A DNA stretch of 64,000 bases from an uncultured Bdellovibrionales bacterium. GTDB lineage: Bacteria > Patescibacteriota > Minisyncoccia > Moranbacterales > UBA1568. The stretch is from positions 16,779 through 80,778 of the forward strand of contig CAYTED010000007.1 of assembly GCA_964436855.1 (NCBI GenBank), read 5' to 3'. A program made the translations under genes and the position numbers. The notes under the pieces were generated by a model. The model saw nothing but the letters and a program-made list of their open reading frames with translations. It was not told where the DNA came from and made no database searches. Shown here piece after piece: positions 2,898 through 36,778 of the stretch; the stretch's first letter is position 1; each line of letters starts with the position of its first letter.

Positions 2898-2924
2898 CCT
2901 CCGACCCGTTTCGGAGGTTTTTTT
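2898..2924 (+). terminator. Rho-independent terminator (plus strand), T-tract overlapping nrdG stop
   Basis: cctccgac-ccgtt-tcggagg followed by ttttttt (2918-2924). Confidence 0.55.
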
Positions 2925-3840
2925 ATCCGCGAATTTCGGTGTGAATATTGTAGTTTGCAAGAATGGCTTTTATTTTTTCCAAATCCACTTTTTTTCCCTT
3001 CGCTTTATTTCGGACACTTGCATCAAATATATTGTCATCTCGAAATGGTTGAAGATAGTATCGTTTTGTTCCGCGAATCCACTCCCCGATCGCCCGGAAA
3101 TCTTCCTCTCTGTGAATCCCCGGAACAACCGTTGTTCGAAATTCATACGGAATCCCGCTTGCCTGAATCAACCGGACGCTTTCTTGTATTTTCTTCATAT
3201 CAACATCTACCCCCATTGCTTCGGCGTACTTCTCCGGCGTATGCTTGATATCCATCGCGACAAAGTCGGCGAGTTTTTGATCAAACACCTTCCGCAAGAT
3301 TTCCGGTCGCAAGCCATTCGAATCAAGCTTCACGAGAAATCCCATTTTTTTTATTTTCTTCAAGAACGGCAAGAGATCGGGTTGTACTGTCGGCTCCCCT
3401 CCCGTCACACAGACGCCGTCGAGCTTCCCCTTCCTTGTCTCAAGAAAATCGAAAAATGTTTTTTCATTTTCTCTCCCGAGCGCAATCATATGATCGTTTG
3501 GAATGATAAGGTCGGGATTGTGACAGAACGGACAACGGAAATTGCAACCAACCGTAAAAACGACCGTCGCTACTTTGCCGGGATAATCAATAAGCGTCAA
3601 TTTTTGGAAACCGCCGATGAGCACAGAATAGAGAATAAAGAATGGGGAATGAAGATTCTTCAAAGAAATCTTTGGGGCGACTTTTCGTCCGAAAGCAAGG
3701 TCTTTTTGCCTACAAAAAGTTTCGGACGAAACGTCAGTTTTTCGCGGCTGGGCGAAAAACGGCACCAAAGATTTATTTGAAGAAAAATCACCAAGGAGAG
3801 AAATCCCCGCGAAGGCGCGGGGACTTTCAATAACACTCAT
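2923..3840 (-). CDS. nrdG: Anaerobic ribonucleoside-triphosphate reductase activating protein (radical SAM)
   Basis: LIDYPGKVATVVFTVGCNFRCPFCHNPDL (CxxxCxxC radical-SAM cluster) and VCVTGGEPT. The ORF extends to 4080, but the first plausible start is ATG 3838-3840; the core domain begins near 3624, where an alternative GTG start is possible. Immediately downstream of the nrdD pieces. Confidence 0.85.
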   Translation of the reverse strand: MSVIESPRAFAGISLLGDFSSNKSLVPFFAQPRKTDVSSETFCRQKDLAFGRKVAPKISLKNLHSPFFILYSVLIGGFQKLTLIDYPGKVATVVFTVGCNFRCPFCHNPDLIIPNDHMIALGRENEKTFFDFLETRKGKLDGVCVTGGEPTVQPDLLPFLKKIKKMGFLVKLDSNGLRPEILRKVFDQKLADFVAMDIKHTPEKYAEAMGVDVDMKKIQESVRLIQASGIPYEFRTTVVPGIHREEDFRAIGEWIRGTKRYYLQPFRDDNIFDASVRNKAKGKKVDLEKIKAILANYNIHTEIRG

Positions 3841-3856
3841 TTCAAAGAAACACGCA

Positions 3857-4120
3857 TTAACATGCCGCGCACTCCGCGACCGCGTATTCGCGCCGATCAC
3901 CAAATTCCGCTTGCTTTCCCTTGTTCCACTGCGCGACCGGGCGAATGTACCCCACGACACGCGAGTATACTTCCATTTCCTGAAAATTTTTGAGTACCGG
4001 CTCCGCTTCGTGACACGAGCGACATTTCGCGTATTCCTTTCCATTCGCGCTATACGGCATATACTCCTCCCCGGAAACAAGAACCTTCTTGCAATCGTGA
4101 CAGCTTATTTTGTTTTGCAT
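3857..4120 (-). CDS. Stand-alone Zn-ribbon plus glycyl-radical domain of class III RNR (NrdD C-terminal domain as a separate ORF)
   Basis: 87 aa: CHDC-x22-CRSC Zn ribbon followed by RVVGYIRPV (RVxGY glycyl radical motif of NrdD) and WNKGKQAEFGDRREY. Same reading frame as the nrdD body, separated from it by one TAA and 19 codons. Confidence 0.75.
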   Translation of the reverse strand: MQNKISCHDCKKVLVSGEEYMPYSANGKEYAKCRSCHEAEPVLKNFQEMEVYSRVVGYIRPVAQWNKGKQAEFGDRREYAVAECAAC

Positions 4121-4177
4121 ACTTCTTTGTATCCCTTTCCGATCGCCGCCACCTCCCGGCTTCCGGAGCGGGTTTGA

Positions 4178-6421
4178 TTATGATGATTTTTTCTTGGAAA
4201 CGACTCCTCCGGTTTTTTTCCTGTCCGCCTTCGGAACGATCGCGTACTCCTTCGCTCCCTCCGCTACGCATTTCGGACAGAGATGGTGTTCGCCCGCGAT
4301 ATATCCGTGTGAGGGACAAATACTGAAGGTCGGCGTGAGTGTAAAATACGGCAGCGCGTAATTTTCGGAGATTTTTCGGACGAGATTTTTCGTCGCTTCC
4401 ACATCCCAGAGTCGCTCACCGAGAAATCCGTGGAGTACCGTCCCGCCCGTATACTTCGTCTGCAGTTTATCCTGAATATCAAGCGCTTCGAAAATATCGT
4501 CCGTGTAACCAACCGGGAGTTGCGAAGAATTCGTATAATACGGCTCCGCTTTCGCCGACCCCACCGACTCGTTATTCGCAAAAACAATATCGGTATACCG
4601 CTCACGATCAAGCCGCGCCAATCGATACGCCGTCCCTTCCGCTGGTGTCGCCTCAAGATTGTAAAGATTTCCCGTTTCTTTCTGATACCCCGTAATACGC
4701 TTTCGCATATATACGAGAATTTCTTCCGCGAGTTTCTGTCCCTCTTTGGTCGTAATACCTTTCTCAACAAGATTGAGAAGCGCTTCGTTCATCCCGACAA
4801 GACCAATCGTTGAGAAATGATTTGCCCAATATTCTCCGCGCCGCATTTTGATCGGAGCGAGATATGCCTTGGTATATGGATAGAGACCGCGATCCGTAAG
4901 TCCTTCGACGAGTTTCCGTTTGATCTCGAGACTTTCCTTCGCGAGATCCATCAGGTGATCGAGTCGCTTGAAAAACTCTTTCTTGTCTTTCGAGAGGTAT
5001 CCGAGTCGCGGAAGATTGATCGTTACAACACCAATTGATCCCGTAAGCGGATTCGCTCCGAAAAGTCCGCCGCCCCGCTTGTGAAGTTCTCTATTGTCGA
5101 GACGCAACCGACAGCACATCGAACGCGCGTCTTCCGGATCCATATCGGAATTCACGAAATTCGCGAAGTATGGGATACCGTATTTCGCCGTCATTTCCCA
5201 AATCGGCTGGAACCGATCATCGCCCCAATCGAAATCCTTTCCGATATTGTAGGTTGGAATCGGAAAGGTAAAGACCCGACCTTCGGCATCTCCCTCCATC
5301 ATCACTTCCGCAAACGCGCGATTAATCATATTCATTTCCTTTTGGAAATCGCCATAGGTTTCTTTTTGCGGCACTCCGCCGATCACGACCGCTTCTTTCG
5401 CCAGTGTTTTCGGAGGGACAATATCGAGCGTGATATTCGAAAACGGCGTCTGAAACCCGACGCGCGTCGATACATTCATATTGAACACAAAATTCTGAAT
5501 ATGCTGCTTGACTTCGGAAAAAGAGAGTTTGTCGAAACGAACAAATGGCGCGAGCAAAGTATCAAAATTTGAAAAAGCCTGCGCGCCAGCGACTTCTCCT
5601 TGCAAGGTGTAAATAAAATTCACCATTTGTCCGAGAATCGCCCCGAAATGTTTGGCGGGCCGACAGGACACCTTTCCGGGAACGCCATTGAAACCGCGAC
5701 GAATCAGGTCCTGCAAATCCCATCCGCAGCAGTACGCCGCCACAAGCTGCAAATCATGAATGTGAAAATCTCCTCCGTCATGCGCTTCCCTGATCTCCCG
5801 CGGATACACTCGATTCATCCAGTACCGCGAAGAAACGATCGAGGCGATGTAGTTGTTGAGCCCTTGAAGGGAATACGACATATTTGCATTCTCCTTCACC
5901 TTCCAGTCGCGCTCACCAATATATTTTTCCACCAAATCCGACGCGTCATCGAGCGACTTTTCCATCTCGCGAGTGCGCCTGCGTTGATCACGATACAAAA
6001 TATACCCCTTTGCCGTCTCTTCATAATCAAGCACCATGAGCACATGCTCGACCAAATCTTGGATATCTTCAATTTTCGGTACCGTACCGCGGTGTTTCTT
6101 CCACAGAAGAGTCGAGACTTTTCGCGCGACCTTTTCAGCGTCTCCTTTCGATCCTTCCCTCGTCGCAAGCAATGCTTTTTCAACCGCCTTTGCAATTTTT
6201 TGTTCGTCGAATCGCACGATTCGGCCGTCACGTTTTTCTACGCGCAGCGGCGACACCCCTCCGCTTGGGGCCGCTTTCTTTTTTTCCGTGGTCGAGACTT
6301 TTTTCACTCTCTTTCGCTTATCTTTTTTGGAGACTGTTTGTCTTTGTGTCGCCATATATACATGTCCTTTTCGGTGTGTTTTCGAGAGAAATATCTTGAC
6401 TCTTTTTTTCCTCTGTGTCAT
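4178..6421 (-). CDS. nrdD: Anaerobic ribonucleoside-triphosphate reductase (class III) catalytic body with ATP-cone; lacks the glycyl radical motif
   Basis: 747 aa; ATP cone LRVEKRDGRIVRFDEQKIAKAVEKA; class III core motifs; C-terminus CPSHGYIAGEHHLCPKC, then ends in TAA with no RVxGY motif. Real start may be Met23 (MATQRQ, AGGA 10 nt upstream, coordinate 6355). Confidence 0.9.
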   Translation of the reverse strand: MTQRKKRVKIFLSKTHRKGHVYMATQRQTVSKKDKRKRVKKVSTTEKKKAAPSGGVSPLRVEKRDGRIVRFDEQKIAKAVEKALLATREGSKGDAEKVARKVSTLLWKKHRGTVPKIEDIQDLVEHVLMVLDYEETAKGYILYRDQRRRTREMEKSLDDASDLVEKYIGERDWKVKENANMSYSLQGLNNYIASIVSSRYWMNRVYPREIREAHDGGDFHIHDLQLVAAYCCGWDLQDLIRRGFNGVPGKVSCRPAKHFGAILGQMVNFIYTLQGEVAGAQAFSNFDTLLAPFVRFDKLSFSEVKQHIQNFVFNMNVSTRVGFQTPFSNITLDIVPPKTLAKEAVVIGGVPQKETYGDFQKEMNMINRAFAEVMMEGDAEGRVFTFPIPTYNIGKDFDWGDDRFQPIWEMTAKYGIPYFANFVNSDMDPEDARSMCCRLRLDNRELHKRGGGLFGANPLTGSIGVVTINLPRLGYLSKDKKEFFKRLDHLMDLAKESLEIKRKLVEGLTDRGLYPYTKAYLAPIKMRRGEYWANHFSTIGLVGMNEALLNLVEKGITTKEGQKLAEEILVYMRKRITGYQKETGNLYNLEATPAEGTAYRLARLDRERYTDIVFANNESVGSAKAEPYYTNSSQLPVGYTDDIFEALDIQDKLQTKYTGGTVLHGFLGERLWDVEATKNLVRKISENYALPYFTLTPTFSICPSHGYIAGEHHLCPKCVAEGAKEYAIVPKADRKKTGGVVSKKKSS

Positions 6422-6437
6422 TCTTTTCTATCAAAAA

Positions 6438-6471
6438 ACACAACATATTGTGTTTATATGATATATTGTAG
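6438..6471 (-). promoter_or_regulatory. NrdR-box-like palindrome(s) upstream of nrdD
   Basis: acacaacatattgtgt (6438-6453) is a 16-bp palindrome matching the NrdR box consensus (acaCwAtATaTwGtgt). A weaker second box atatgatatattgtag lies at 6456-6471, overlapping the -10. Confidence 0.45.
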
Positions 6472-6492
6472 CACTAGTTCTTCTTCATGCAA
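6465..6492 (-). promoter_or_regulatory. Putative nrdD promoter (TTGCAT - 16 nt - TACAAT on minus strand)
   Basis: Plus strand atgcaa at 6487-6492 and attgta at 6465-6470, 16-nt spacer. NrdR-like boxes overlap the -10 and +1, the classic repression geometry. Confidence 0.45.
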
Positions 6493-6560
6493 GTTTGGCT
6501 TTTATTCCCGAAAAAGGACGTACCATGATACAATAAAACTATAATTTTGAAAGAAACTGT

Positions 6561-6986
6561 ATGGAATATCCACATTTTGAAGCAGTTGGCGACGGAGATG
6601 AATCTTCAAAAAATTCTCCATCCCTCGAAGGAAATAACTGGAAAGAAAAGATGAATCAAATCCCTTTTTTCTCTCGCGAAGATGGTCCATGGAGAGAAGA
6701 GATCATTCCGCGTGTCAATAAACTCATAGAAGGCGCTCAGCAGAATTTCCGGGAATCTCTTTCCGTTCATCCTCCGGCTCCTGATTTTGGGCGGGCATTT
6801 GATACCGACTCCGATCTTCGTCGAGCGGTGTATGAACGCTATCTTGGTCAAAAATGGGATCAACAACTCGCAAACGCCCAAGGAGAAGCCTACCAGCAAG
6901 CCTTTTCAACGATAGCAAGAAATGTGTTTGAGGTTTGGGACACATTTATAAAAAATGGTCTTCCTGAAAAACCACGCTTCAATTAA
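6561..6986 (+). CDS. Hypothetical protein (141 aa)
   Basis: Intact ORF followed by a bidirectional terminator; no recognisable motifs. Confidence 0.5.
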   Translation: MEYPHFEAVGDGDESSKNSPSLEGNNWKEKMNQIPFFSREDGPWREEIIPRVNKLIEGAQQNFRESLSVHPPAPDFGRAFDTDSDLRRAVYERYLGQKWDQQLANAQGEAYQQAFSTIARNVFEVWDTFIKNGLPEKPRFN

Positions 6987-7022
6987 AAAATACTACTTTC
7001 CTTCTTTGGAAAATATGTTTTG

Positions 7023-7058
7023 AAAAACGCGGCCATCCCTTTTGGATACCGCGTTTTT
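7023..7058. terminator. Bidirectional Rho-independent terminator
   Basis: aaaaacgcgg-ccatcccttttggata-ccgcgttttt; A-tract and T-tract flank a 6-bp GC-rich stem. Confidence 0.55.
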
Positions 7059-7449
7059 ACATTATTCCCTGCTTTCCTTTTTTTTGACAAGTAAGAGCGT
7101 GACAAATCCAGTCAGTAAGGATTATTCCTCTTAGGGCATCCTCCTCTGAAATACTCACCGAATACACTGCATACAAAAGTTCCGAAATTTTTCGGACAAC
7201 ATCGCAATGGGAATCCGCGAGATAGAGGTTACTGTAAACTGTCGCCGGACGCACTGGTTGTGTCGCTGCTTGTATCGCTGCTTGTATCGCTATATTTTTC
7301 ATATTCGAAGGAGAAATGTCCTCTTCATTGTCTCCGAATACACGAAGCAGCACTTGCCGCACTTTTTCCGAAAGATCTATCTCTTGCACTAAGTATCGAA
7401 TATGCGGAATGGTGTCCGCTTCTCCTTCCATTTCAATCATCATTTTCAT
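7057..7449 (-). CDS. Hypothetical protein (130 aa)
   Basis: ORF ending at the bidirectional terminator; no recognisable motifs. Confidence 0.45.
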   Translation of the reverse strand: MKMMIEMEGEADTIPHIRYLVQEIDLSEKVRQVLLRVFGDNEEDISPSNMKNIAIQAAIQAATQPVRPATVYSNLYLADSHCDVVRKISELLYAVYSVSISEEDALRGIILTDWICHALTCQKKGKQGIM

Positions 7450-7542
7450 TTTCTTCCCTTGGCAAAGAACAGAAAGAACACTTTGACATTTTTACTTCAA
7501 GAAGTCAATAGGGTTCTGACTTGGTCAGCAGATTTTCTGGGT

Positions 7543-27162: not shown

Positions 27163-29052
27163 TTATGCGGCGGTTCCATCGTCGGATCGACCCATATGCG
27201 TCCCATCTTCATAGGCTACCGCGTACATATCAGCGGTATCGTCATACCAGATAAACGAATACGATCCGTCCCCAACCCGCGAGGTTGTCCCGACGCGTTC
27301 ATCATCGGCAACACGAAAAATATCGATATTTACGGTACCTCCGCCCGAACCGGTAATAGATCCCGAGATACTGAAAGCAATGGAGTGGTATGTCATTAAA
27401 AAATCCAAGTGGTCAAACGTATTTGACGCATTCGCGGAAGCAAGCCTCCACCGACGTGATGTCTCGATATCGAGACGACTTAAAAGCGTATCTCCGGGCC
27501 ATCGGCTAAAAACCGAACGTGCGGTAAAGTACGCTTGTCGAACTCCAACTTCCGGATCGGTTGCCGATATATCGGTATAACAATTTTCCCATTTCAATCC
27601 CCCTTCTCCGGAAAGACGCTCCGTCTGCACGGTAACACCCGATGCGGTTCCCGTGCTTGTTGTCATATAAAAGTACCAACCGCCAATCGCGGTAAAAAAA
27701 TAATTCGTTTCCGGAATAACCGGTGCGGTAGCGGATATCGTTGAGCTGACCGCTGCTGCTGTTGTCGAGAAATTTTTCAAATTCCACCGAACCGTATGAT
27801 TGTGCGCTCCGACACCGTCGGTCGCTTTTCCGGAGGTATAGTTGATAATCCACAAACACGATACATTCAATCCCAGGTTTGTCGCGTCTGTCCGGTACGC
27901 ATCTGCCTGAAGCGTATTCGCTCCCCGGGAAAGTGTTGGCGTGAATGCTTCCATCAATCCCGCCCCACCGCCCATAATCGCGGCACCATCGGTGTATGTT
28001 TGAAAGGCTCCGGTACCAACCCGAAAATTTAATCCGGAAATCGCCGCCGTTTTATCGTAACAAACAAGCACCCCGGACTCCACTCCCGTAACCGTGTCCG
28101 GCTCTTCGATCCAAAGCGTTCGCTCGCCCCGCTGAAAATCCGCCGATGTCGTCCCTCCCATCGGAGAATCAAACTCCATTGGTAAAAGAAGAGAGTTCAG
28201 GATAGTGGTCGATGCGGACGGATCAAACTCGTAGGTTATAACCATATATACCTGCAAGTGCTCCGTAAAAGCCGACGACCCCCAAATATAAAACGAGTGC
28301 GAGGCATTCGTGGTAAAAGTCGGCTGATTCCACAAATAGGTAAACCAACGATCGGTAGCGAGTCCGGATTCGATACCGCCATTTGTATTGACGCCATTTG
28401 TGTCGATTTCCATCGAAATAGTCGGGTCGGTACCGGTGGTATCACTGTTCCCCTGAATGACAATATGCCAATCTCGAATCGTTTTTGATGACTCGGGAAG
28501 CCATGTATCAAGTGCCGGAATCGTCGCTATGGCCGTCCCCGGCTTCGTGGTCGCAAGCGCTCCGGACGGCGTATCAAGCGGCAAATAAACCGTCTTTATC
28601 TGTGTTGCCTGCGTATCGTCGTATTCATAGGTGATATACAGTCGTGCCGTAAGATCGCGCATCCCAAGCGTGGTACCGGTCGACTGATCCCAGTATGCCT
28701 GAATATCACAGGTCATATTTGTGCCAGACCAATTTGTAGAGAAGTGGGAAGTAAAATCAGCGGATACTTGATGTGAAACGTTCTCGCCGGAGTTTGCAAT
28801 ATCGTTCAGATTCGTATTCGTGGTATAGCCGGAAGCCCCAAGCTGCACCCCTATGCGCCATTCGGTAACCGTACCTCCGGTGTTCGTAATAATGTCGTTT
28901 GCCGTCATTACGCACAGAACACTCCGAAATGTAACCGTCCCACTCCCCTCCGGAATATATACCGTGAATTGGGTAAAGTTTGCCACCACTGCATCCGATG
29001 TCGAAGAAAGTGTCGGCGCTGAAAATTCGATAGTTTTGAGACGAGTAGCCAT
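27163..29052 (-). CDS. Large T/S/N/G-rich beta-type hypothetical protein (629 aa), no signal peptide
   Basis: Starts MATRLKTIEFSAPTLS with no N-terminal hydrophobic segment; paralog of 29814..31736 (shared blocks YITYEYDD(T/S)Q(A/T)TQIKTVY(L/I)PL, TIPALDT(W/E)LPE(S/T)SKT, ends RSD(D/N)GTA). Confidence 0.6.
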   Translation of the reverse strand: MATRLKTIEFSAPTLSSTSDAVVANFTQFTVYIPEGSGTVTFRSVLCVMTANDIITNTGGTVTEWRIGVQLGASGYTTNTNLNDIANSGENVSHQVSADFTSHFSTNWSGTNMTCDIQAYWDQSTGTTLGMRDLTARLYITYEYDDTQATQIKTVYLPLDTPSGALATTKPGTAIATIPALDTWLPESSKTIRDWHIVIQGNSDTTGTDPTISMEIDTNGVNTNGGIESGLATDRWFTYLWNQPTFTTNASHSFYIWGSSAFTEHLQVYMVITYEFDPSASTTILNSLLLPMEFDSPMGGTTSADFQRGERTLWIEEPDTVTGVESGVLVCYDKTAAISGLNFRVGTGAFQTYTDGAAIMGGGAGLMEAFTPTLSRGANTLQADAYRTDATNLGLNVSCLWIINYTSGKATDGVGAHNHTVRWNLKNFSTTAAAVSSTISATAPVIPETNYFFTAIGGWYFYMTTSTGTASGVTVQTERLSGEGGLKWENCYTDISATDPEVGVRQAYFTARSVFSRWPGDTLLSRLDIETSRRWRLASANASNTFDHLDFLMTYHSIAFSISGSITGSGGGTVNIDIFRVADDERVGTTSRVGDGSYSFIWYDDTADMYAVAYEDGTHMGRSDDGTAA

Positions 29053-29813: not shown

Positions 29814-31736
29814 TTACGATGCCGTGCCATTGTCGGAACGCCCAATGAGTGTTGAACTCTCTCTCGCTTCCGTAAAGAGCGTTTCCGTATTATCGTACCA
29901 CGTAATGGAGTAACTCCCGTTTCCGGTACGAGAGGTTGTCGCCGCAAGCTCTTTATTGCTTGTACGCCACAAACTGATAGATACCGTCCCGCCGGATGAA
30001 CCGGTAATCTCACCCGAAACGGTGTACACAATGGAGTGGTAGGTCAACCAAAGATCCATATATATGAATCCCGTTCCGGCATTGGTATATGTCCACCACC
30101 AACGTCGCGTTCCTTCGGGATCAAGTGATCTCATAGGGTCGTTTGGGTACCTCTGAATATCATCGCGAACACCGGCAAAATGCTGATGCAACCCTTTTTC
30201 CGCGTCAGTATGTCCATTAATCGTATCAACCGTCAGCCATTCGCCTGCCGAATCGGTTTTTTCCATCATTAAAACAGCGCCGCCGAATGTTGTCGTGGTG
30301 TTTGTTACATGAGCGACATGGCATCCGAAACCGCTCAAGTAGTAGTCGGTGTCCGGAATACTGACCGCAAAGGCGGCTGTTTTTCGATTCGTCGCCGTCG
30401 CGCCATCAAATGTAAATCCGGCATTCCACTTGACCGTATGATTGGCGGCACCATATCCTTGTGTTGGCTTATCGGCGGTATAGTTCACAATCCAAAAACC
30501 AGAAATACCGGGACCGAAATCGGCCGTATCCGAACGATAGAAATCGGCCGTAAGATTGTTTTGACCACGATCAAGAGTAAAGGCGGAATCATTCCGAACC
30601 ATACAACCATTACCGCCGCAGAGAACGGCCGCCGCATCGGTATACGATACGAACGACCCTGTTCCCACGCGAAAATTCAATGTAGAAATAGCCGCAGCCT
30701 GTTCCCATACCGGGAAGAACGCTATCTGTTTGGTAGTAATGGTTCCCGGCTCTTCAATCCATAAGATCCGGCTTACTCGATCAAAATCCGTCGAAGCGGT
30801 ACCTCCCAATATGGATGCCTGCGAAACCATAAGCGTCGAGACAAAAACCCCGCTCGAAGCCGAAGCGTCAAACTCATATGTGACCACCATATACACCTGT
30901 TGGTGATTATGACGTGCCACGGATGCCCAAATATAAAATCCGTGTGTCGCGTTTGTTGTCATTCCAAGTCCCGCCGAAGATCCGCCCGAATCATAGTAAC
31001 GTGTCGTCCATACGAATTTTGCCCAATAATCCGATGTCGCGCCCATCTCAAGAGTCTGGCTCGTGTAAGCTGTGAGAGTATCAATCTGCATTGAAAGCGT
31101 GGAGTCAACCGTGGAAGCGGTATTGTTCACGTTACCCTGACAGACGATATACATACTTCGATACGTCTTCGACGTCTCGGGGAGCTCGGTATCGAGCGCG
31201 GGGATAGTATCGGTTGCCGTCCCCGGCTTCGCTGTTGCCAGTGTTCCAACCGGCGCATTGAGCGGGATGTAAACAGTTTTGATTTGCGTTGTCTGACTAT
31301 CGTCGTATTCGTAGGTAATGTATACCGTCGCCCCGACATTGTTCATAATAATACCCGATGCCGAAGCGTGGTCGACCAAAACAGAAACAGCGACCGTCTT
31401 GCTCGTGCCGGTTGTCCAGTTGGTCGTGAAGTGTGTCGTTGCATCCGCCGCATAAAAAAGCATTGTTTGTTCACCGGAGTTCGTTTCGAGGTTGGCATTG
31501 GTATACGATGTCGCCGTGGCACCACCCACCGACACATCGATACGCCGCGACGTATAGTTTCCAAGCGTCGTTGAGGCATCATTTACCTGAAGTTCCACGA
31601 CCGCTTTCTTGATCGTTACCGTTCCTGAAAATTCGGGAATATACGCGGTAATCACCGTCATCGCCGTAAGCGTATTGTCCGCAAGCGTATTGAGCTGCGG
31701 AATACCGTATTGAATGGTTTTCAGTCTTGTCGCCAT
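29814..31736 (-). CDS. Large T/S/N/G-rich beta-type hypothetical protein (640 aa), paralog, no signal peptide
   Basis: MATRLKTIQYGIPQLNT...; see 27163..29052. Confidence 0.6.
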   Translation of the reverse strand: MATRLKTIQYGIPQLNTLADNTLTAMTVITAYIPEFSGTVTIKKAVVELQVNDASTTLGNYTSRRIDVSVGGATATSYTNANLETNSGEQTMLFYAADATTHFTTNWTTGTSKTVAVSVLVDHASASGIIMNNVGATVYITYEYDDSQTTQIKTVYIPLNAPVGTLATAKPGTATDTIPALDTELPETSKTYRSMYIVCQGNVNNTASTVDSTLSMQIDTLTAYTSQTLEMGATSDYWAKFVWTTRYYDSGGSSAGLGMTTNATHGFYIWASVARHNHQQVYMVVTYEFDASASSGVFVSTLMVSQASILGGTASTDFDRVSRILWIEEPGTITTKQIAFFPVWEQAAAISTLNFRVGTGSFVSYTDAAAVLCGGNGCMVRNDSAFTLDRGQNNLTADFYRSDTADFGPGISGFWIVNYTADKPTQGYGAANHTVKWNAGFTFDGATATNRKTAAFAVSIPDTDYYLSGFGCHVAHVTNTTTTFGGAVLMMEKTDSAGEWLTVDTINGHTDAEKGLHQHFAGVRDDIQRYPNDPMRSLDPEGTRRWWWTYTNAGTGFIYMDLWLTYHSIVYTVSGEITGSSGGTVSISLWRTSNKELAATTSRTGNGSYSITWYDNTETLFTEARESSTLIGRSDNGTAS

Positions 31737-34852: not shown

Positions 34853-36778
34853 TTACAACTCATCAAATACAAGCATTGCATTGTTATCGTTATCGTAGAC
34901 ACCAAGCTCGGTTGCGGAATCATTTTTCAAATATACGCCATTGCCAAACTTGAGAACGTTTTCGATAAAAATATTCCCATCTCCCGTCAGCGTGAGCGCG
35001 GGGCATGCATCATTATCGCAAACCCAGAGATTCTCGGAAAGTGCCCGGATATCCGATCCGGTTGCCGCAATTTGCAGATCTCCAACCGAATCAACGGTCA
35101 TTTCGCTATAATTCGTAAGATCCTTGGAAAGTCGCACTTGCGGAGCACTCGCGGCCTGTACCACTTCAAGCACGCGTGCCGGTGAAGCAGTTCCGATACC
35201 GACATTCCCCGTACCATCAATCACAAACGGTGTTGTATCACTCACTGCGTCATCCACCCGAACCGCAAGATTATTGGTTCCGGTCGCGCGATGATCTACG
35301 AAAAGCGAGGTATTTGCATTGAGCGCGCCGATATTGGAAACCGAGAGAACATTTCCGGTATTTGAAGCGCTCGAACCACTCAAGGAAATTCCCGCCAAAT
35401 TTCCGGTAAATGTGGTTGAACTCGAAGCGACAGTCAGCCCAGATCCAGATGTCAGTCCATTGGTTGTTATCGCAAGACCCGTTTCGCCATCGATTGAATT
35501 CGCTGTAAGATTCGCACCGTTTGCCGCATTCGAACTCTGCACGAGATCAAGTACCGCGATCGCTGCCGTTGTATTGTCTTGACTCACTTGAAGCGTAAAC
35601 GCCGAAAGATCGTTTCCCCCAGACGATGGGTTCTTGATAACAAGACCATCATCCGCGGCCGTCAGTGAAATCGTCGCATTTCCTCCATCGGCATCATTCC
35701 CATACGTCGTTTGAAGATCGCTTGATCCGCCCGTCCCGCAACCGGCATTGGTTTCATTACAGAGTGTTTTTGTTGTTCCTCCTTCATTGATTTTAAATTT
35801 TCCAGCCGCGGAGTCATACCAGATATCTCCCGCGGCCGCGCCGGTCGTTCCGGAAACGATCACAGAAAGAAAGTCTCCGGTTGCAACGGATACCCGGCCG
35901 GAAGCAGAATCAAGAGTAAGTCCGGATGATCCTCCGGATGAAAGCGTTACCGCGCCTGCGCCGGTATAGCTTTGACCCGCGGCGATAGAAACACCGCCCG
36001 TATCGACCGTAATCGAATCAGCGGTAAGCGCATCTTGCACATCGACAATTCCGGATCCATTCGCGAGTAAAACCAGCGATTCATTGGTTCCGGTCGTGAT
36101 ATCGGTCGTTGCACCGGTAAATGTCAGTCCTGTTGAACCAATGATTTTATTTGTCAGCGTCTGTCCCGTCGTCAGGTCAGCAAGCGTTATCGTCCCCGAT
36201 GGAAGGGTCGCGACCGTCGTCGCTGTCGAAGTTAAGGTGAGAGGAAATGCTCCGGATGTCGTAAAAGCATCTGCGAAAGAAACTGTTTTGCCGTTCGCGA
36301 TCGTCAATGTTCCGGTCGTATCCGTTACGGAAAGCCCGTGAACCTTGTCGGCATTGAATGCATACGGAACGGCGGTAAAGCGAACGCGCGGCGACATTTC
36401 GCCATCGCTATTAAATTCGATACCGAGGTAAATATTGTCGGTATTGAAATCAACCGATCCGGGAAGTGCCGTATGCGTTCCGAGTGCCACTTGAAACACG
36501 CCATCGGTAACCGTCACCTGTGTCGTGCCACTATTCCACGTTTCCGTCCAAATCGCTGCGCCACCGGATGAGACGGAATAAAGCTTGAAAACAAAGTCGT
36601 AACTTCCGTTCGACACATTCGTTCCGTCCGAATTCACGACTTTTCCCTGAAAGTTGATTTGTTTGTTGATGCCGGTCGCAGCAAATACGGTTCCCGAAAA
36701 AGCAAAAATTCCCCCGAAAAGAGCAAGGGTGATAATCGAAGAAAGGGTGATATTTTTGATATTTCGGATCTGCCGCAT
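34853..36778 (-). CDS. Large secreted cell-surface protein (641 aa) with N-terminal INFQGK beta-rich module
   Basis: Signal peptide ITLALFGGIFAFSGTVFA; INFQGKVVNSDGTNVSNGSYDFVFKLYS...SPRVRFTAVPYAF recalls a module recurrent in giant extracellular proteins; G/T/S-rich remainder. Confidence 0.65.
   Translation of the reverse strand: MRQIRNIKNITLSSIITLALFGGIFAFSGTVFAATGINKQINFQGKVVNSDGTNVSNGSYDFVFKLYSVSSGGAAIWTETWNSGTTQVTVTDGVFQVALGTHTALPGSVDFNTDNIYLGIEFNSDGEMSPRVRFTAVPYAFNADKVHGLSVTDTTGTLTIANGKTVSFADAFTTSGAFPLTLTSTATTVATLPSGTITLADLTTGQTLTNKIIGSTGLTFTGATTDITTGTNESLVLLANGSGIVDVQDALTADSITVDTGGVSIAAGQSYTGAGAVTLSSGGSSGLTLDSASGRVSVATGDFLSVIVSGTTGAAAGDIWYDSAAGKFKINEGGTTKTLCNETNAGCGTGGSSDLQTTYGNDADGGNATISLTAADDGLVIKNPSSGGNDLSAFTLQVSQDNTTAAIAVLDLVQSSNAANGANLTANSIDGETGLAITTNGLTSGSGLTVASSSTTFTGNLAGISLSGSSASNTGNVLSVSNIGALNANTSLFVDHRATGTNNLAVRVDDAVSDTTPFVIDGTGNVGIGTASPARVLEVVQAASAPQVRLSKDLTNYSEMTVDSVGDLQIAATGSDIRALSENLWVCDNDACPALTLTGDGNIFIENVLKFGNGVYLKNDSATELGVYDNDNNAMLVFDEL

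What the first reader, a model, noticed from the sequence alone, without database searches (positions are those of the whole stretch)
3857..6421. Class III ribonucleotide reductase split by a single in-frame TAA into catalytic body and stand-alone Zn-ribbon/glycyl-radical mini-subunit
The 747-aa nrdD ORF (ATP cone plus barrel) ends in TAA at 4178-4180 without the RVxGY glycyl-radical motif. Nineteen codons later, in the same frame, a good ATG opens an 87-aa ORF carrying a complete CxxC-x22-CxxC Zn ribbon and RVVGYIRPV...WNKGKQAEF, the NrdD C-terminal radical domain. nrdG follows directly.

Three readings are possible: (a) a genuine two-piece NrdD, with the radical domain supplied in trans, analogous to the GrcA/YfiD spare part for pyruvate formate-lyase; (b) nonsense pseudogenisation or a sequencing error; (c) stop-codon readthrough. 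A trans-acting radical domain for RNR would be notable.
Basis: partly seen in the sequence, partly recalled or inferred. Interest (0 to 1): 0.6.

Follow-up and report, generated by a model that had tools for sequence, protein, structure and literature searches.

The report
Two-piece anaerobic RNR with detached radical domain
This candidate-phylum bacterium makes its anaerobic ribonucleotide reductase from two proteins: a large catalytic body that has lost its radical-bearing tail, and a separate 87-residue protein that carries that tail and belongs to a large, apparently undescribed family of stand-alone "spare-part" radical domains for this enzyme.

Summary
On the minus strand, a 747-aa NrdD (ATP-cone plus barrel) stops at TAA 4178-4180 without a glycyl-radical motif. 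Fifty-seven bases later an 87-aa ORF carries a 4-Cys zinc ribbon and EVYSRVVGYIRPV. nrdG follows.

It is not a gene cut by one stop codon.
- The body keeps its own CxxH...CxxC ribbon, so the small ORF's ribbon is a second one.
- In 14 related loci the same small ORF sits behind a complete NrdD that still has its own radical domain, a spare-part layout.
- In 29 of the 121 closest NrdD clusters, this one included, the body's radical loop has decayed. The remnants are visible, and the small protein is then the only radical domain at the locus.

Sequencing error, pseudogene and readthrough are excluded.
- An independent assembly (89% identical) has the same truncated end, a frame-shifted 67-nt spacer and extra in-frame stops.
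- Spacers run from 1 to 136 nt and only 7 of 24 are in frame.
- dN/dS is 0.05 for the body and 0.16 for the small ORF.

Orphan homologues occur in Desulfobacterota, Saccharibacteria, ANME-1 archaea and viral contigs. A June 2026 review says spare parts are known only for formate lyases. Docking, activation and activity are inferred, not shown.

The parts
4178..6421 (-). nrdD catalytic body ORF, 747 aa. The true start is probably Met23 at 6355, which matches the N-terminus 'MAT..' of relative P0123. It has no glycyl-radical motif.
   Evidence: (PF13597 E = 1.1e-183; PRK08270 positions 4-650 of 684)
5978..6244 (-). ATP-cone domain (residues 60-148)
   Evidence: PF03477, E = 7e-22
4262..5893 (-). 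NrdD barrel (residues 177-720; Pfam NRDD profile positions 1-529 of 562)
   Evidence: PDB relatives 8p23 and 4coi/4u3e
5111..5116 (-). Cys436-Cys437 in the motif RSMCCRLRLD, taken to be the finger loop. It is invariant in 43 relatives, and it places the enzyme in the double-cysteine subclass.
   Evidence: the subclass definition comes from PMC9669993
4268..4318 (-). The body's own zinc ribbon, CPSHGYIAGEHHLCPKC (Cys/His/Cys/Cys), retained in all truncated bodies
4181..4267 (-). Decayed remnant of the beta-strand that normally leads to the radical glycine (VAEGAKEYAIVP, compared with V.EQKTEVYSRVVGY in full-length relatives), followed by a Lys-rich tail
   Evidence: (graded series of remnants)
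4178..4180 (-). TAA stop codon of the body. TAA is the commonest stop codon in this window (25 of 36 long ORFs).
4121..4177 (-). 57-nt spacer. It is in frame and stop-free here, but it is not conserved in length, frame or sequence in relatives.
3857..4120 (-). 87-aa stand-alone glycyl-radical-domain protein. It is the only radical domain in the window.
4013..4102 (-). Second zinc ribbon, C7-H-D-C10...C33-R-S-C36. The four Cys and Asp9 are invariant in 36 homologues. CHDC is the signature of the family.
3893..3973 (-). Glycyl-radical loop EVYSRVVGYIRPVAQWNKGKQAEFGDR. The predicted radical glycine is Gly57 (codon 3950-3952).
3860..3871 (-). C-terminal CAAC cysteine pair. Two or more Cys follow the radical loop in 96 of 121 small proteins, but in only 3 of 92 full-length NrdDs of the clade.
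3805..3822 (-). GC-rich hairpin CCCCGCG-CCUU-CGCGGGG, followed by a U-rich stretch, between the small ORF and nrdG. It could be an attenuator or partial terminator.
   Evidence: 61 nt fold at -20.9 kcal/mol, z = -4.3
2923..3624 (-). nrdG activase (radical SAM, NrdG2 type), 233 aa from GTG 3624
   Evidence: TIGR02495, E = 4e-63; relatives are 233 aa

Best explanation
The locus encodes a class III ribonucleotide reductase made of two polypeptides.

The large subunit has an ATP-cone, a barrel with a double-cysteine finger loop, and its own Cys/His zinc ribbon. It has lost the C-terminal glycyl-radical loop and ends at about the position of the radical glycine, much like an oxygen-cleaved enzyme.

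The radical domain is supplied by the 87-aa protein encoded 57 nt downstream. That protein has a 4-Cys ribbon, the EVYSRVVGY loop, a helix and a C-terminal CxxC. It belongs to a large family of stand-alone NrdD-type glycyl-radical proteins.

In most related Moranbacteria and Parcubacteria this small gene sits between a complete nrdD and nrdG, which is a spare-part layout. In this lineage the cis copy decayed, so the small protein became the obligatory radical subunit.

Inferred mechanism: NrdG installs the radical on Gly57 of the small protein, and its loop docks into the barrel of the truncated body. There it generates the thiyl radical on the finger loop, as GrcA/YfiD does with oxygen-cleaved pyruvate formate-lyase. 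After oxygen damage only the 10-kDa subunit would need replacing.

Shown here: the gene architecture, its conservation, purifying selection, the absence of readthrough, and lineage-matched cis and trans loops.

Inferred, not shown: docking, activation by NrdG, and catalytic activity.
For: 1. The small ORF has 285 homologue clusters, and the best 120 are all 80-113 aa. In a library clustered at 50% identity, the best 150 representatives are all 42-159 aa.
2. The gene order (nrdR-)nrdD-small-nrdG is conserved.
3. In 14 loci the upstream NrdD is complete with its own radical loop. In the window and 7 further loci it is truncated right after the ribbon.
4. Of the 121 nearest NrdD clusters, 92 have the Gly motif and 29 lack it. 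The tails form a decay series: EQKTETYSKVI*, EQKTEVFLKVGE.., AEGAKEYAIVP...
5. Truncated forms fall in at least 2-3 subclades of an NJ tree of the barrel (no support values).
6. An independent assembly, P0123 (89% identical), ends CPKCVAEGAKEYAIVP.. like the window.
7. Window against L003: dN/dS is 0.05 for the body and 0.16 for the small ORF, with synonymous sites near saturation.
8. The catalytic motifs are invariant across truncated and complete forms.
9. The trans loop is most similar to its own genome's cis loop in 13 of the 15 locus entries that have both, counting ties for first place. L001 and L002 carry the same gene pair. Rare variants are shared, such as WNGGK, KKTEFGDR and QFNLGK.
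10. Two other Patescibacteria loci (L062, L076) show a plain fission between ribbon and Gly loop, so a trans radical loop has arisen more than once.
11. There is no terminator or known RNA element between the body and the small ORF.
12. In PFL, the residues left in front of the cleaved Gly are required for YfiD binding (PMC8683613). The truncated NrdD bodies retain the equivalent segment.
Against: - There is no biochemical, proteomic or transcript evidence.
- The small protein alone folds with low confidence (pLDDT 64.7).
- The body alone gave a poor model from a shallow alignment (pLDDT 58).
- Only 64 kb of the genome is visible, so a second, complete nrdD or another RNR elsewhere cannot be excluded.
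- The body keeps its own ribbon and strand remnant. How two ribbons are accommodated is unknown.
- The similarity between cis and trans loops could come from gene conversion between neighbouring copies rather than from a shared binding site.
Confidence: 0.75

Rival explanations
1. The small protein is only a repair or spare part, or serves some other function. The truncated NrdD in this window would then be a non-catalytic leftover or regulatory paralogue, with a complete NrdD or another RNR class elsewhere in the genome doing the real work.
For: In most relatives the small ORF accompanies a complete NrdD. Orphan copies exist far from any nrdD, and one genome (Olavius Delta 3 symbiont) has an orphan copy plus a complete NrdD on another contig. 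Only 64 kb of this genome could be inspected.
Against: The truncated body is under strong purifying selection (dN/dS 0.05). Its ATP-cone, finger loop, ribbon and all barrel motifs are invariant. It stays in an operon with nrdG and, in 4 of the 6 truncated-body loci that were checked, with nrdR. Truncated bodies are common (29 of 121 clusters). No other RNR was seen among the eight large ORFs (566 aa and above) scanned in the window.
Confidence: 0.12
2. The small protein is not a radical donor for NrdD. It would instead act as a regulator or decoy substrate of NrdG, as a radical store, or as a redox partner through its C-terminal Cys pair.
For: Of 121 small proteins, 96 carry two or more Cys after the radical loop, against 3 of 92 cis NrdD tails. 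That suggests a function beyond simple redundancy. Orphan and viral copies have no NrdD or NrdG neighbour.
Against: The Gly loop is invariant at every position that defines the NrdD radical loop. It co-varies with the cognate cis loop. In truncated-body genomes no other radical loop is present at the locus.
Confidence: 0.08
3. Stop-codon readthrough or recoding of TAA 4178-4180 gives a single fused NrdD.
For: In this window the spacer is in frame and free of stops.
Against: The closest relative (89% identical) has TAA-TGA-CGG-TAA and a 67-nt, frame-shifted spacer. The next relative has TAG, 107 nt, frame-shifted, with a further stop. Across 24 loci, 7 are in frame, about the one-third expected by chance, and spacers run from 1 to 136 nt. 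TAA is the main stop codon of the window (25 of 36 long ORFs) and all three stops are used. No fused homologue exists among the 120 listed hits. No Rfam element is present.
Confidence: 0.02
4. A recent nonsense mutation (pseudogene), or a sequencing or assembly error, at 4178-4180.
For: Nothing beyond the in-frame layout.
Against: The residues in front of the stop are not a radical loop, so removing the stop would not restore a normal NrdD. The same truncated end appears in an independent assembly and in many diverged relatives. Both genes are under purifying selection.
Confidence: 0.02

Closest known systems
GrcA/YfiD of E. coli and Y06I of phage T4, the autonomous glycyl radical cofactors (spare parts) of pyruvate formate-lyase
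   Same: Each is a small stand-alone protein whose C-terminal part copies the strand, Gly loop and helix of the big enzyme's radical domain, and each has an N-terminal part of its own. Phage-encoded versions exist. The partner enzyme, once cleaved or truncated at the Gly, keeps the segment in front of the Gly, and in PFL that segment is needed for YfiD binding (PMC8683613).
   Different: The enzyme family is different: NrdD, not PFL. Pfam finds only PF13597 and no PFL-type Gly_radical domain at E up to 0.01. The N-terminal part is a folded 4-Cys zinc ribbon rather than a disordered segment. The gene sits inside the nrdD-nrdG operon. In this lineage the big enzyme has genetically lost its own radical loop, so the small protein would be obligatory rather than a repair part. 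A June 2026 review states that spare parts are known only for formate lyases (PMC13450708).
Split class II RNR NrdJa/NrdJb of Pseudomonas aeruginosa
   Same: It is an RNR expressed as two polypeptides. The small C-terminal piece carries a zinc-finger domain and a cysteine pair, and both pieces are required for function (PMC4520616; PMC9669993).
   Different: That enzyme is B12-dependent and has no glycyl radical. NrdJb handles reductive dithiol exchange, not radical generation. It is a plain fission, not the loss of a cis copy next to a stand-alone duplicate.
Canonical single-chain NrdD with NrdG (phage T4, E. coli, Thermotoga maritima, Prevotella copri)
   Same: The ATP-cone, barrel, finger-loop cysteines, C-terminal zinc ribbon, radical loop sequence and adjacent radical-SAM activase are all present.
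   Different: The radical loop lies on a separate polypeptide that has a second ribbon. The large chain stops at about the position of the radical Gly.
Genes-in-pieces class I NrdA of Aeromonas phage Aeh1, split by a homing-endonuclease insertion (recalled from memory: Friedrich et al. 2007; not checked here)
   Same: It is an RNR large subunit that works as two polypeptides.
   Different: It is class I, is split within the catalytic domain by a mobile endonuclease gene, and involves no radical-domain duplication.

Membership tests
Class III ribonucleotide reductase NrdD (Pfam PF13597; NCBIfam PRK08270/TIGR02487) | Ten-stranded alpha/beta barrel with finger-loop cysteine(s) | tested here: met
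   The body matches PF13597 at E = 1.1e-183 and PRK08270 at 1041 bits, above the 548-bit cut-off. The CC motif is invariant. PDB NrdDs match.
Class III ribonucleotide reductase NrdD (Pfam PF13597; NCBIfam PRK08270/TIGR02487) | C-terminal zinc ribbon on the catalytic chain | tested here: met
   CPSH..CPKC at residues 702-718 of the body.
Class III ribonucleotide reductase NrdD (Pfam PF13597; NCBIfam PRK08270/TIGR02487) | Glycyl-radical loop RVxGY on the same polypeptide as the barrel | tested here: not met
   The body ends ..KEYAIVPKADRKK.. without the motif. The motif lies on the separate 87-aa ORF. The enzyme is a member as a two-chain assembly, not as a single chain.
Class III ribonucleotide reductase NrdD (Pfam PF13597; NCBIfam PRK08270/TIGR02487) | Adjacent radical-SAM activase NrdG | tested here: met
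   TIGR02495 NrdG2 matches at E = 4e-63 with 212 bits, above the 131-bit cut-off.
Class III ribonucleotide reductase NrdD (Pfam PF13597; NCBIfam PRK08270/TIGR02487) | NTP reduction dependent on a glycyl radical | not testable with these tools
   This needs anaerobic reconstitution, EPR and an activity assay.
[quoted passage not shown] | Small stand-alone protein carrying a glycyl-radical loop | tested here: met
   The ORF is 87 aa, and all listed homologues are 80-113 aa.
[quoted passage not shown] | Sequence homology to the PFL C-terminal domain (Pfam Gly_radical) | tested here: not met
   Pfam and NCBIfam scans at E up to 0.01 return only NrdD models. It works like GrcA but is not a member of that family.
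[quoted passage not shown] | Coexists with a complete cognate enzyme whose radical domain it duplicates | tested here: inconclusive
   This is met in 14 related loci. It is not met in this window, where the cognate enzyme lacks its own loop.
[quoted passage not shown] | Activated by the cognate activase and restores activity to the cleaved enzyme | not testable with these tools
   This is a biochemical property.
Split RNR of the NrdJa/NrdJb type | Simple fission of one ancestral chain into two adjacent genes with no duplicated segment | tested here: not met
   Both the body and the small ORF carry a ribbon, and relatives have a complete NrdD plus the small ORF. Plain fissions do exist in L062 and L076, but they have a different architecture.

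The most novel reading that the evidence does not exclude
A widespread, so far undescribed family of autonomous NrdD-type glycyl-radical proteins exists in bacteria, archaea and their viruses. Its signature is a CHDC zinc ribbon followed by the EVYSRVVGY loop, and ribbon-less mini versions also occur. These proteins would serve as exchangeable radical cofactors for class III RNR: the first spare parts for any glycyl radical enzyme other than formate lyases. In several candidate-phylum lineages, including this one, the spare part would have become the only radical subunit. That would be the first natural glycyl radical enzyme whose radical sits on a separate, obligatory small subunit. Its C-terminal Cys pair may also deliver reducing equivalents.
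Probability: 0.55. Interest if true: 0.85.

Novelty: new variant of a known kind. Interest (0 to 1): 0.77.

Why it matters
Glycyl radical enzymes are destroyed by oxygen through cleavage at the radical glycine. The only known remedy is the GrcA/YfiD spare part of pyruvate formate-lyase.

Specialists have asked in print whether other glycyl radical enzymes have spare parts (PMC8683613). A June 2026 review still lists formate lyases as the only case (PMC13450708).

This locus and its relatives supply concrete candidates for the enzyme that makes DNA precursors in anaerobes, and three natural states to compare:
- a complete enzyme plus a spare part;
- a truncated enzyme plus an obligatory small subunit;
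- orphan and viral copies.

If confirmed, the finding would:
- show that the radical domain of an RNR can work in trans;
- offer a natural system for studying how the activase reaches the glycine loop;
- explain how small-genome, oxygen-exposed groundwater bacteria keep an oxygen-sensitive RNR running cheaply;
- suggest that phages carry such domains to sustain host dNTP synthesis.

It also matters for annotation. These ORFs are currently named 'anaerobic ribonucleoside-triphosphate reductase' or left unnamed, and truncated bodies could be mistaken for pseudogenes.

Tried and rejected
- **Structure of the complex.** No docking model exists.
- **Small protein alone with 36 homologues.** Mean pLDDT was 64.7. 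The ribbon scored 72-79 and the radical loop 52-66.
- **Foldseek of that model against the PDB.** It gave only weak generic zinc-finger hits (best E = 0.23). This is uninformative.
- **Body alone with 43 close homologues.** Mean pLDDT was 58 because the alignment is shallow. This is uninformative.
- **phmmer of the small ORF against PDB sequences.** It found no NrdD chain at E up to 1.
- **Rfam at E up to 1, and promoter/terminator scans around the junction.** No recoding or regulatory RNA appeared, and there is no terminator between the body and the small ORF.
- **Exact look-up of the small protein's contig.** It found nothing.
- **A conserved partner gene next to orphan copies.** None was found in Saccharibacteria or in a Desulfobacterales-type locus. 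There is no NrdG or NrdD within 4 kb.
- **PHROGs.** It has no dedicated family for the small proteins.
- **Literature.** Seven searches and eight papers gave no description of a split NrdD or an NrdD spare part. The library does not cover all subscription journals.
- **Rejected readings.** Sequencing error, pseudogene, readthrough, and a simple one-stop fission.
Full report
**1. What is in the sequence**

On the minus strand, ORF 6421..4178 encodes 747 aa. It has an ATP-cone (residues 60-148) and the NrdD barrel (Pfam PF13597 profile positions 1-529 of 562; NCBIfam PRK08270 at 1041 bits, positions 4-650 of 684). It ends in TAA at 4180..4178.

Fifty-seven bases later (19 sense codons, same frame, no stop), ATG 4120 opens an 87-aa ORF (4120..3857). 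This ORF carries CHDC-x22-CRSC and EVYSRVVGYIRPVAQWNKGKQAEF, and it ends in CAAC. It matches the last 50 positions of the NrdD profile at E = 1.2e-12.

nrdG (NrdG2 type, E = 4e-63) follows after 232 nt, probably starting at GTG 3624.

One thing was missed. The body keeps its own zinc ribbon (CPSHGYIAGEHHLCPKC, residues 702-718). After it come the segment VAEGAKEYAIVP and a Lys-rich tail. The small ORF's ribbon is therefore a second ribbon, not the one cut off the body. The small ORF carries the only glycyl-radical motif in the whole 64-kb window.

**2. The small ORF is a conserved stand-alone gene**

It has 285 homologue clusters. The best 120 (57-100% identity) are all 80-113 aa long and come from Moranbacteria and Parcubacteria assemblies. 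The four ribbon cysteines, Asp9 and the whole Gly loop are invariant in 36 of them.

A profile search of 1.84 billion representatives clustered at 50% identity returned 3819 hits. The best 150 are all 42-159 aa. No fused version appears among the close homologues.

**3. Relatives change the interpretation**

I fetched 80 loci from species-level genomes and read the ORFs around each match. Four layouts appear.

- **Class A, complete NrdD plus small ORF.** Fourteen loci (L001, 6, 7, 8, 10, 11, 12, 13, 16, 22, 23, 32, 38, 42) have a complete NrdD with its own ..EQKTEVYSRVVGYIRPV.. loop. It is followed by the small CHDC-ribbon ORF and then nrdG.
- **Class B, truncated NrdD plus small ORF.** The window and L003, 4, 5, 9, 14, 15 and 17 have an NrdD that stops just after its ribbon, then the small ORF, then nrdG. 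(nrdG was not seen in L003, whose sequence ends about 40 nt after the small ORF.)
- **Class C, orphan small ORFs.** About 28 loci have neither an NrdD nor an NrdG within 4 kb. They come from Desulfobacterales, Thermodesulfobacteriota, Syntrophales, Saccharibacteria, Nealsonbacteria and a Methanophagales archaeon. One genome, the Olavius Delta 3 symbiont, has an orphan (L021) and a complete NrdD on another contig (L081).
- **Ordinary single-chain NrdD.** One of these is a Moranbacteria example without a small ORF (L051).

Two more Patescibacteria loci (L062, L076) show a plain fission between ribbon and Gly loop. Their small pieces have no ribbon: about 50 aa in L062 and 44 aa in L076.

**4. 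The body's radical loop decayed; it was not cut off by one mutation**

Among the 121 NrdD clusters closest to the window's body, 92 have the Gly motif and 29 lack it. One of the 29 looks like a frameshift.

The truncated tails form a graded series of remnants of 'EQKTEVYSRVVGY':
- ..EQKTETYSKVI*
- ..EQKTEVFLKVGE..
- ..AEQSSTVYLKVVMED*
- ..AEGAKEYAIVP.. (this window)

All end at or near the place where the radical glycine would be. All keep the CxxH..CxxC ribbon.

In an NJ tree of the barrel, truncated forms sit in at least two or three separate subclades among the complete forms. This suggests repeated loss, but the tree has no support values.

The likely history is this. A stand-alone radical-domain gene was already present next to nrdD. 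The cis copy was then lost in some lineages, including this one.

**5. Error, pseudogene and readthrough are excluded**

- An independent assembly from another sample (P0123, 89% identical) ends CPKCVAEGAKEYAIVP.. like the window. Its small ORF differs by a few residues.
- In that closest relative the body stop is followed by TGA-CGG-TAA. The spacer is 67 nt and frame-shifted.
- In the next relative the stop is TAG. The spacer is 107 nt and frame-shifted, and it contains another stop in the body frame.
- Over 24 loci the stop is TAA or TAG, spacers run from 1 to 136 nt, and 7 are in frame. That is about the one-third expected by chance.
- TAA is the commonest stop codon of the window (25 of 36 long ORFs) and all three stops are used.
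- No Rfam element and no terminator lie at the junction.
- Window against L003: dN/dS is 0.05 for the body and 0.16 for the small ORF, with synonymous sites near saturation.
- Barrel motifs, including RSMCCRLRLD, are invariant in truncated and complete forms alike.

**6. A link between the small protein and its NrdD**

There are 15 locus entries with both a cis and a trans loop. L001 and L002 are two captures of the same gene pair. In 13 of the 15, the trans loop is most similar to its own genome's cis loop among 46 cis loops, counting ties for first place. Rare variants are shared, such as WNGGK, KKTEFGDR, KAAEYQDRKEFV and QFNLGK.

This fits a shared binding pocket, or gene conversion between neighbouring copies. 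Either way, the two are tied together.

**7. Mechanism**

Shown: the large chain lacks the radical loop, the small chain has it, and an activase gene is adjacent.

Inferred from the established chemistry of NrdD/NrdG and from the PFL-YfiD precedent:
- NrdG abstracts hydrogen from Gly57 of the small protein.
- The loop inserts into the barrel of the truncated body and generates the thiyl radical on the finger loop.

In PFL, the residues that remain in front of the cleaved glycine are required for YfiD binding, and YfiD's N-terminal half helps recognition (PMC8683613). Here the truncated body keeps the equivalent ribbon and strand remnant, and the small protein has its own N-terminal ribbon. The analogy is therefore close.

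A detachable 10-kDa radical subunit would make oxygen damage cheap to repair.

I could not test docking.

**8. Comparison with what is known**

*GrcA/YfiD and T4 Y06I.* The small protein works like these, but it is not a member of that family. Pfam and NCBIfam find only NrdD models.

*Split RNR precedent.* The closest one is NrdJa/NrdJb of class II. [quoted passage not shown] There the small piece handles dithiol exchange, not the radical (PMC4520616; PMC9669993).

*Literature.* A June 2026 review states that formate lyases are the only glycyl radical enzymes with identified spare parts (PMC13450708). Andorfer et al. 2021 raise the possibility for other enzymes as an open question. Seven full-text searches found no description of a split NrdD or an NrdD spare part. 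Neither PHROGs nor NCBIfam has a dedicated family. The library does not hold all subscription journals, so an earlier mention cannot be fully excluded.

**9. Wider family**

The CHDC-ribbon radical proteins of all layouts align as one family.

IMG/VR viral contigs hold dozens of orphan mini-ORFs of 43-133 aa with the NrdD loop, some with the ribbon and some without. Nearly all have no NrdD or NrdG within 4 kb.

The deposited ANMV-1 archaeal virus has a 144-aa member annotated simply as 'anaerobic ribonucleoside triphosphate reductase'. This parallels T4's Y06I for PFL.

**10. Verdict**

- The trans-acting reading is supported. The 'single stop codon split' origin is not.
- The locus is best described as a class III RNR whose radical domain has moved to an obligatory small subunit, recruited from a family of NrdD-type spare parts.
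- It is a new variant of known kinds (class III RNR; autonomous glycyl radical cofactors).
- Confidence that the architecture is real and under selection is about 0.95. Confidence that it works as a two-subunit enzyme is about 0.75.

Noticed in passing
L083-L162 (IMG/VR viral contigs); L163:4857-5291 (ANMV-1 virus KP703175, protein AJP62049.1): Dozens of orphan mini-ORFs (43-133 aa) on viral contigs carry the NrdD glycyl-radical loop. Some have the CHDC ribbon and some have only the loop. Nearly all have no NrdD or NrdG within 4 kb. They may be phage-encoded NrdD spare parts, analogous to T4 Y06I for PFL.
   Followed up: partly
L018-L052 (for example L021:3740-4273, L029:3917-4273, L052:3926-4288): Orphan CHDC-ribbon radical proteins occur in Desulfobacterales, Thermodesulfobacteriota, Syntrophales, Saccharibacteria, Nealsonbacteria and a Methanophagales archaeon. 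Many have a conserved N-terminal helix such as MTVERLHELFDE. The Olavius Delta 3 symbiont has an orphan copy (L021) plus a complete NrdD on another contig (L081).
   Followed up: partly
L062:1729-4111 and L076:1701-4126: Two Patescibacteria loci show a plain fission of NrdD between the zinc ribbon and the Gly loop. The small pieces have no ribbon (44 aa in L076, about 50 aa in L062). This looks like an independent route to a two-piece NrdD.
   Followed up: partly
window 3860-3871 (-), and the C-termini of P0001-P0121: Of 121 small proteins, 96 have two or more Cys after the radical loop (CxxC, CxC or CC at the very end). Only 3 of 92 complete NrdDs of the same clade do. The NrdD here is of the double-cysteine finger-loop subclass, so this tail might act as a redox shuttle. 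That idea is untested.
   Followed up: partly
window 3805-3822 (-), within the 232-nt gap 3625-3856: A 7-bp GC-rich hairpin (CCCCGCG-CCUU-CGCGGGG) followed by a U-rich stretch lies between the small ORF and nrdG. The 61-nt region folds at -20.9 kcal/mol with z = -4.3. It could be an attenuator that sets a lower level of nrdG than of nrdD and the small ORF.
   Followed up: partly
window 6422-7500, compared with L001:3084-3530: nrdR, which lies directly upstream of nrdD in many relatives, is absent from the window. It was also not found in L003 or L014, the closest truncated-body relatives in the tree. It is present in L005, L009, L015 and L017.
   Followed up: partly
window 27163-29052, 29814-31736 and 34853-36778 (-): Three ORFs of about 630-640 aa have no Pfam match. 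The first two are paralogues (44% identity over their full length).
   Followed up: no
window 6355-6421 (-), and the N-termini of P0123-P0242: The NrdD bodies of this clade carry long Lys-rich N-terminal extensions in front of the ATP-cone, and Lys-rich C-terminal tails. The window's annotated start (6421) is probably 22 codons too early, since Met23 aligns with the start of P0123.
   Followed up: partly
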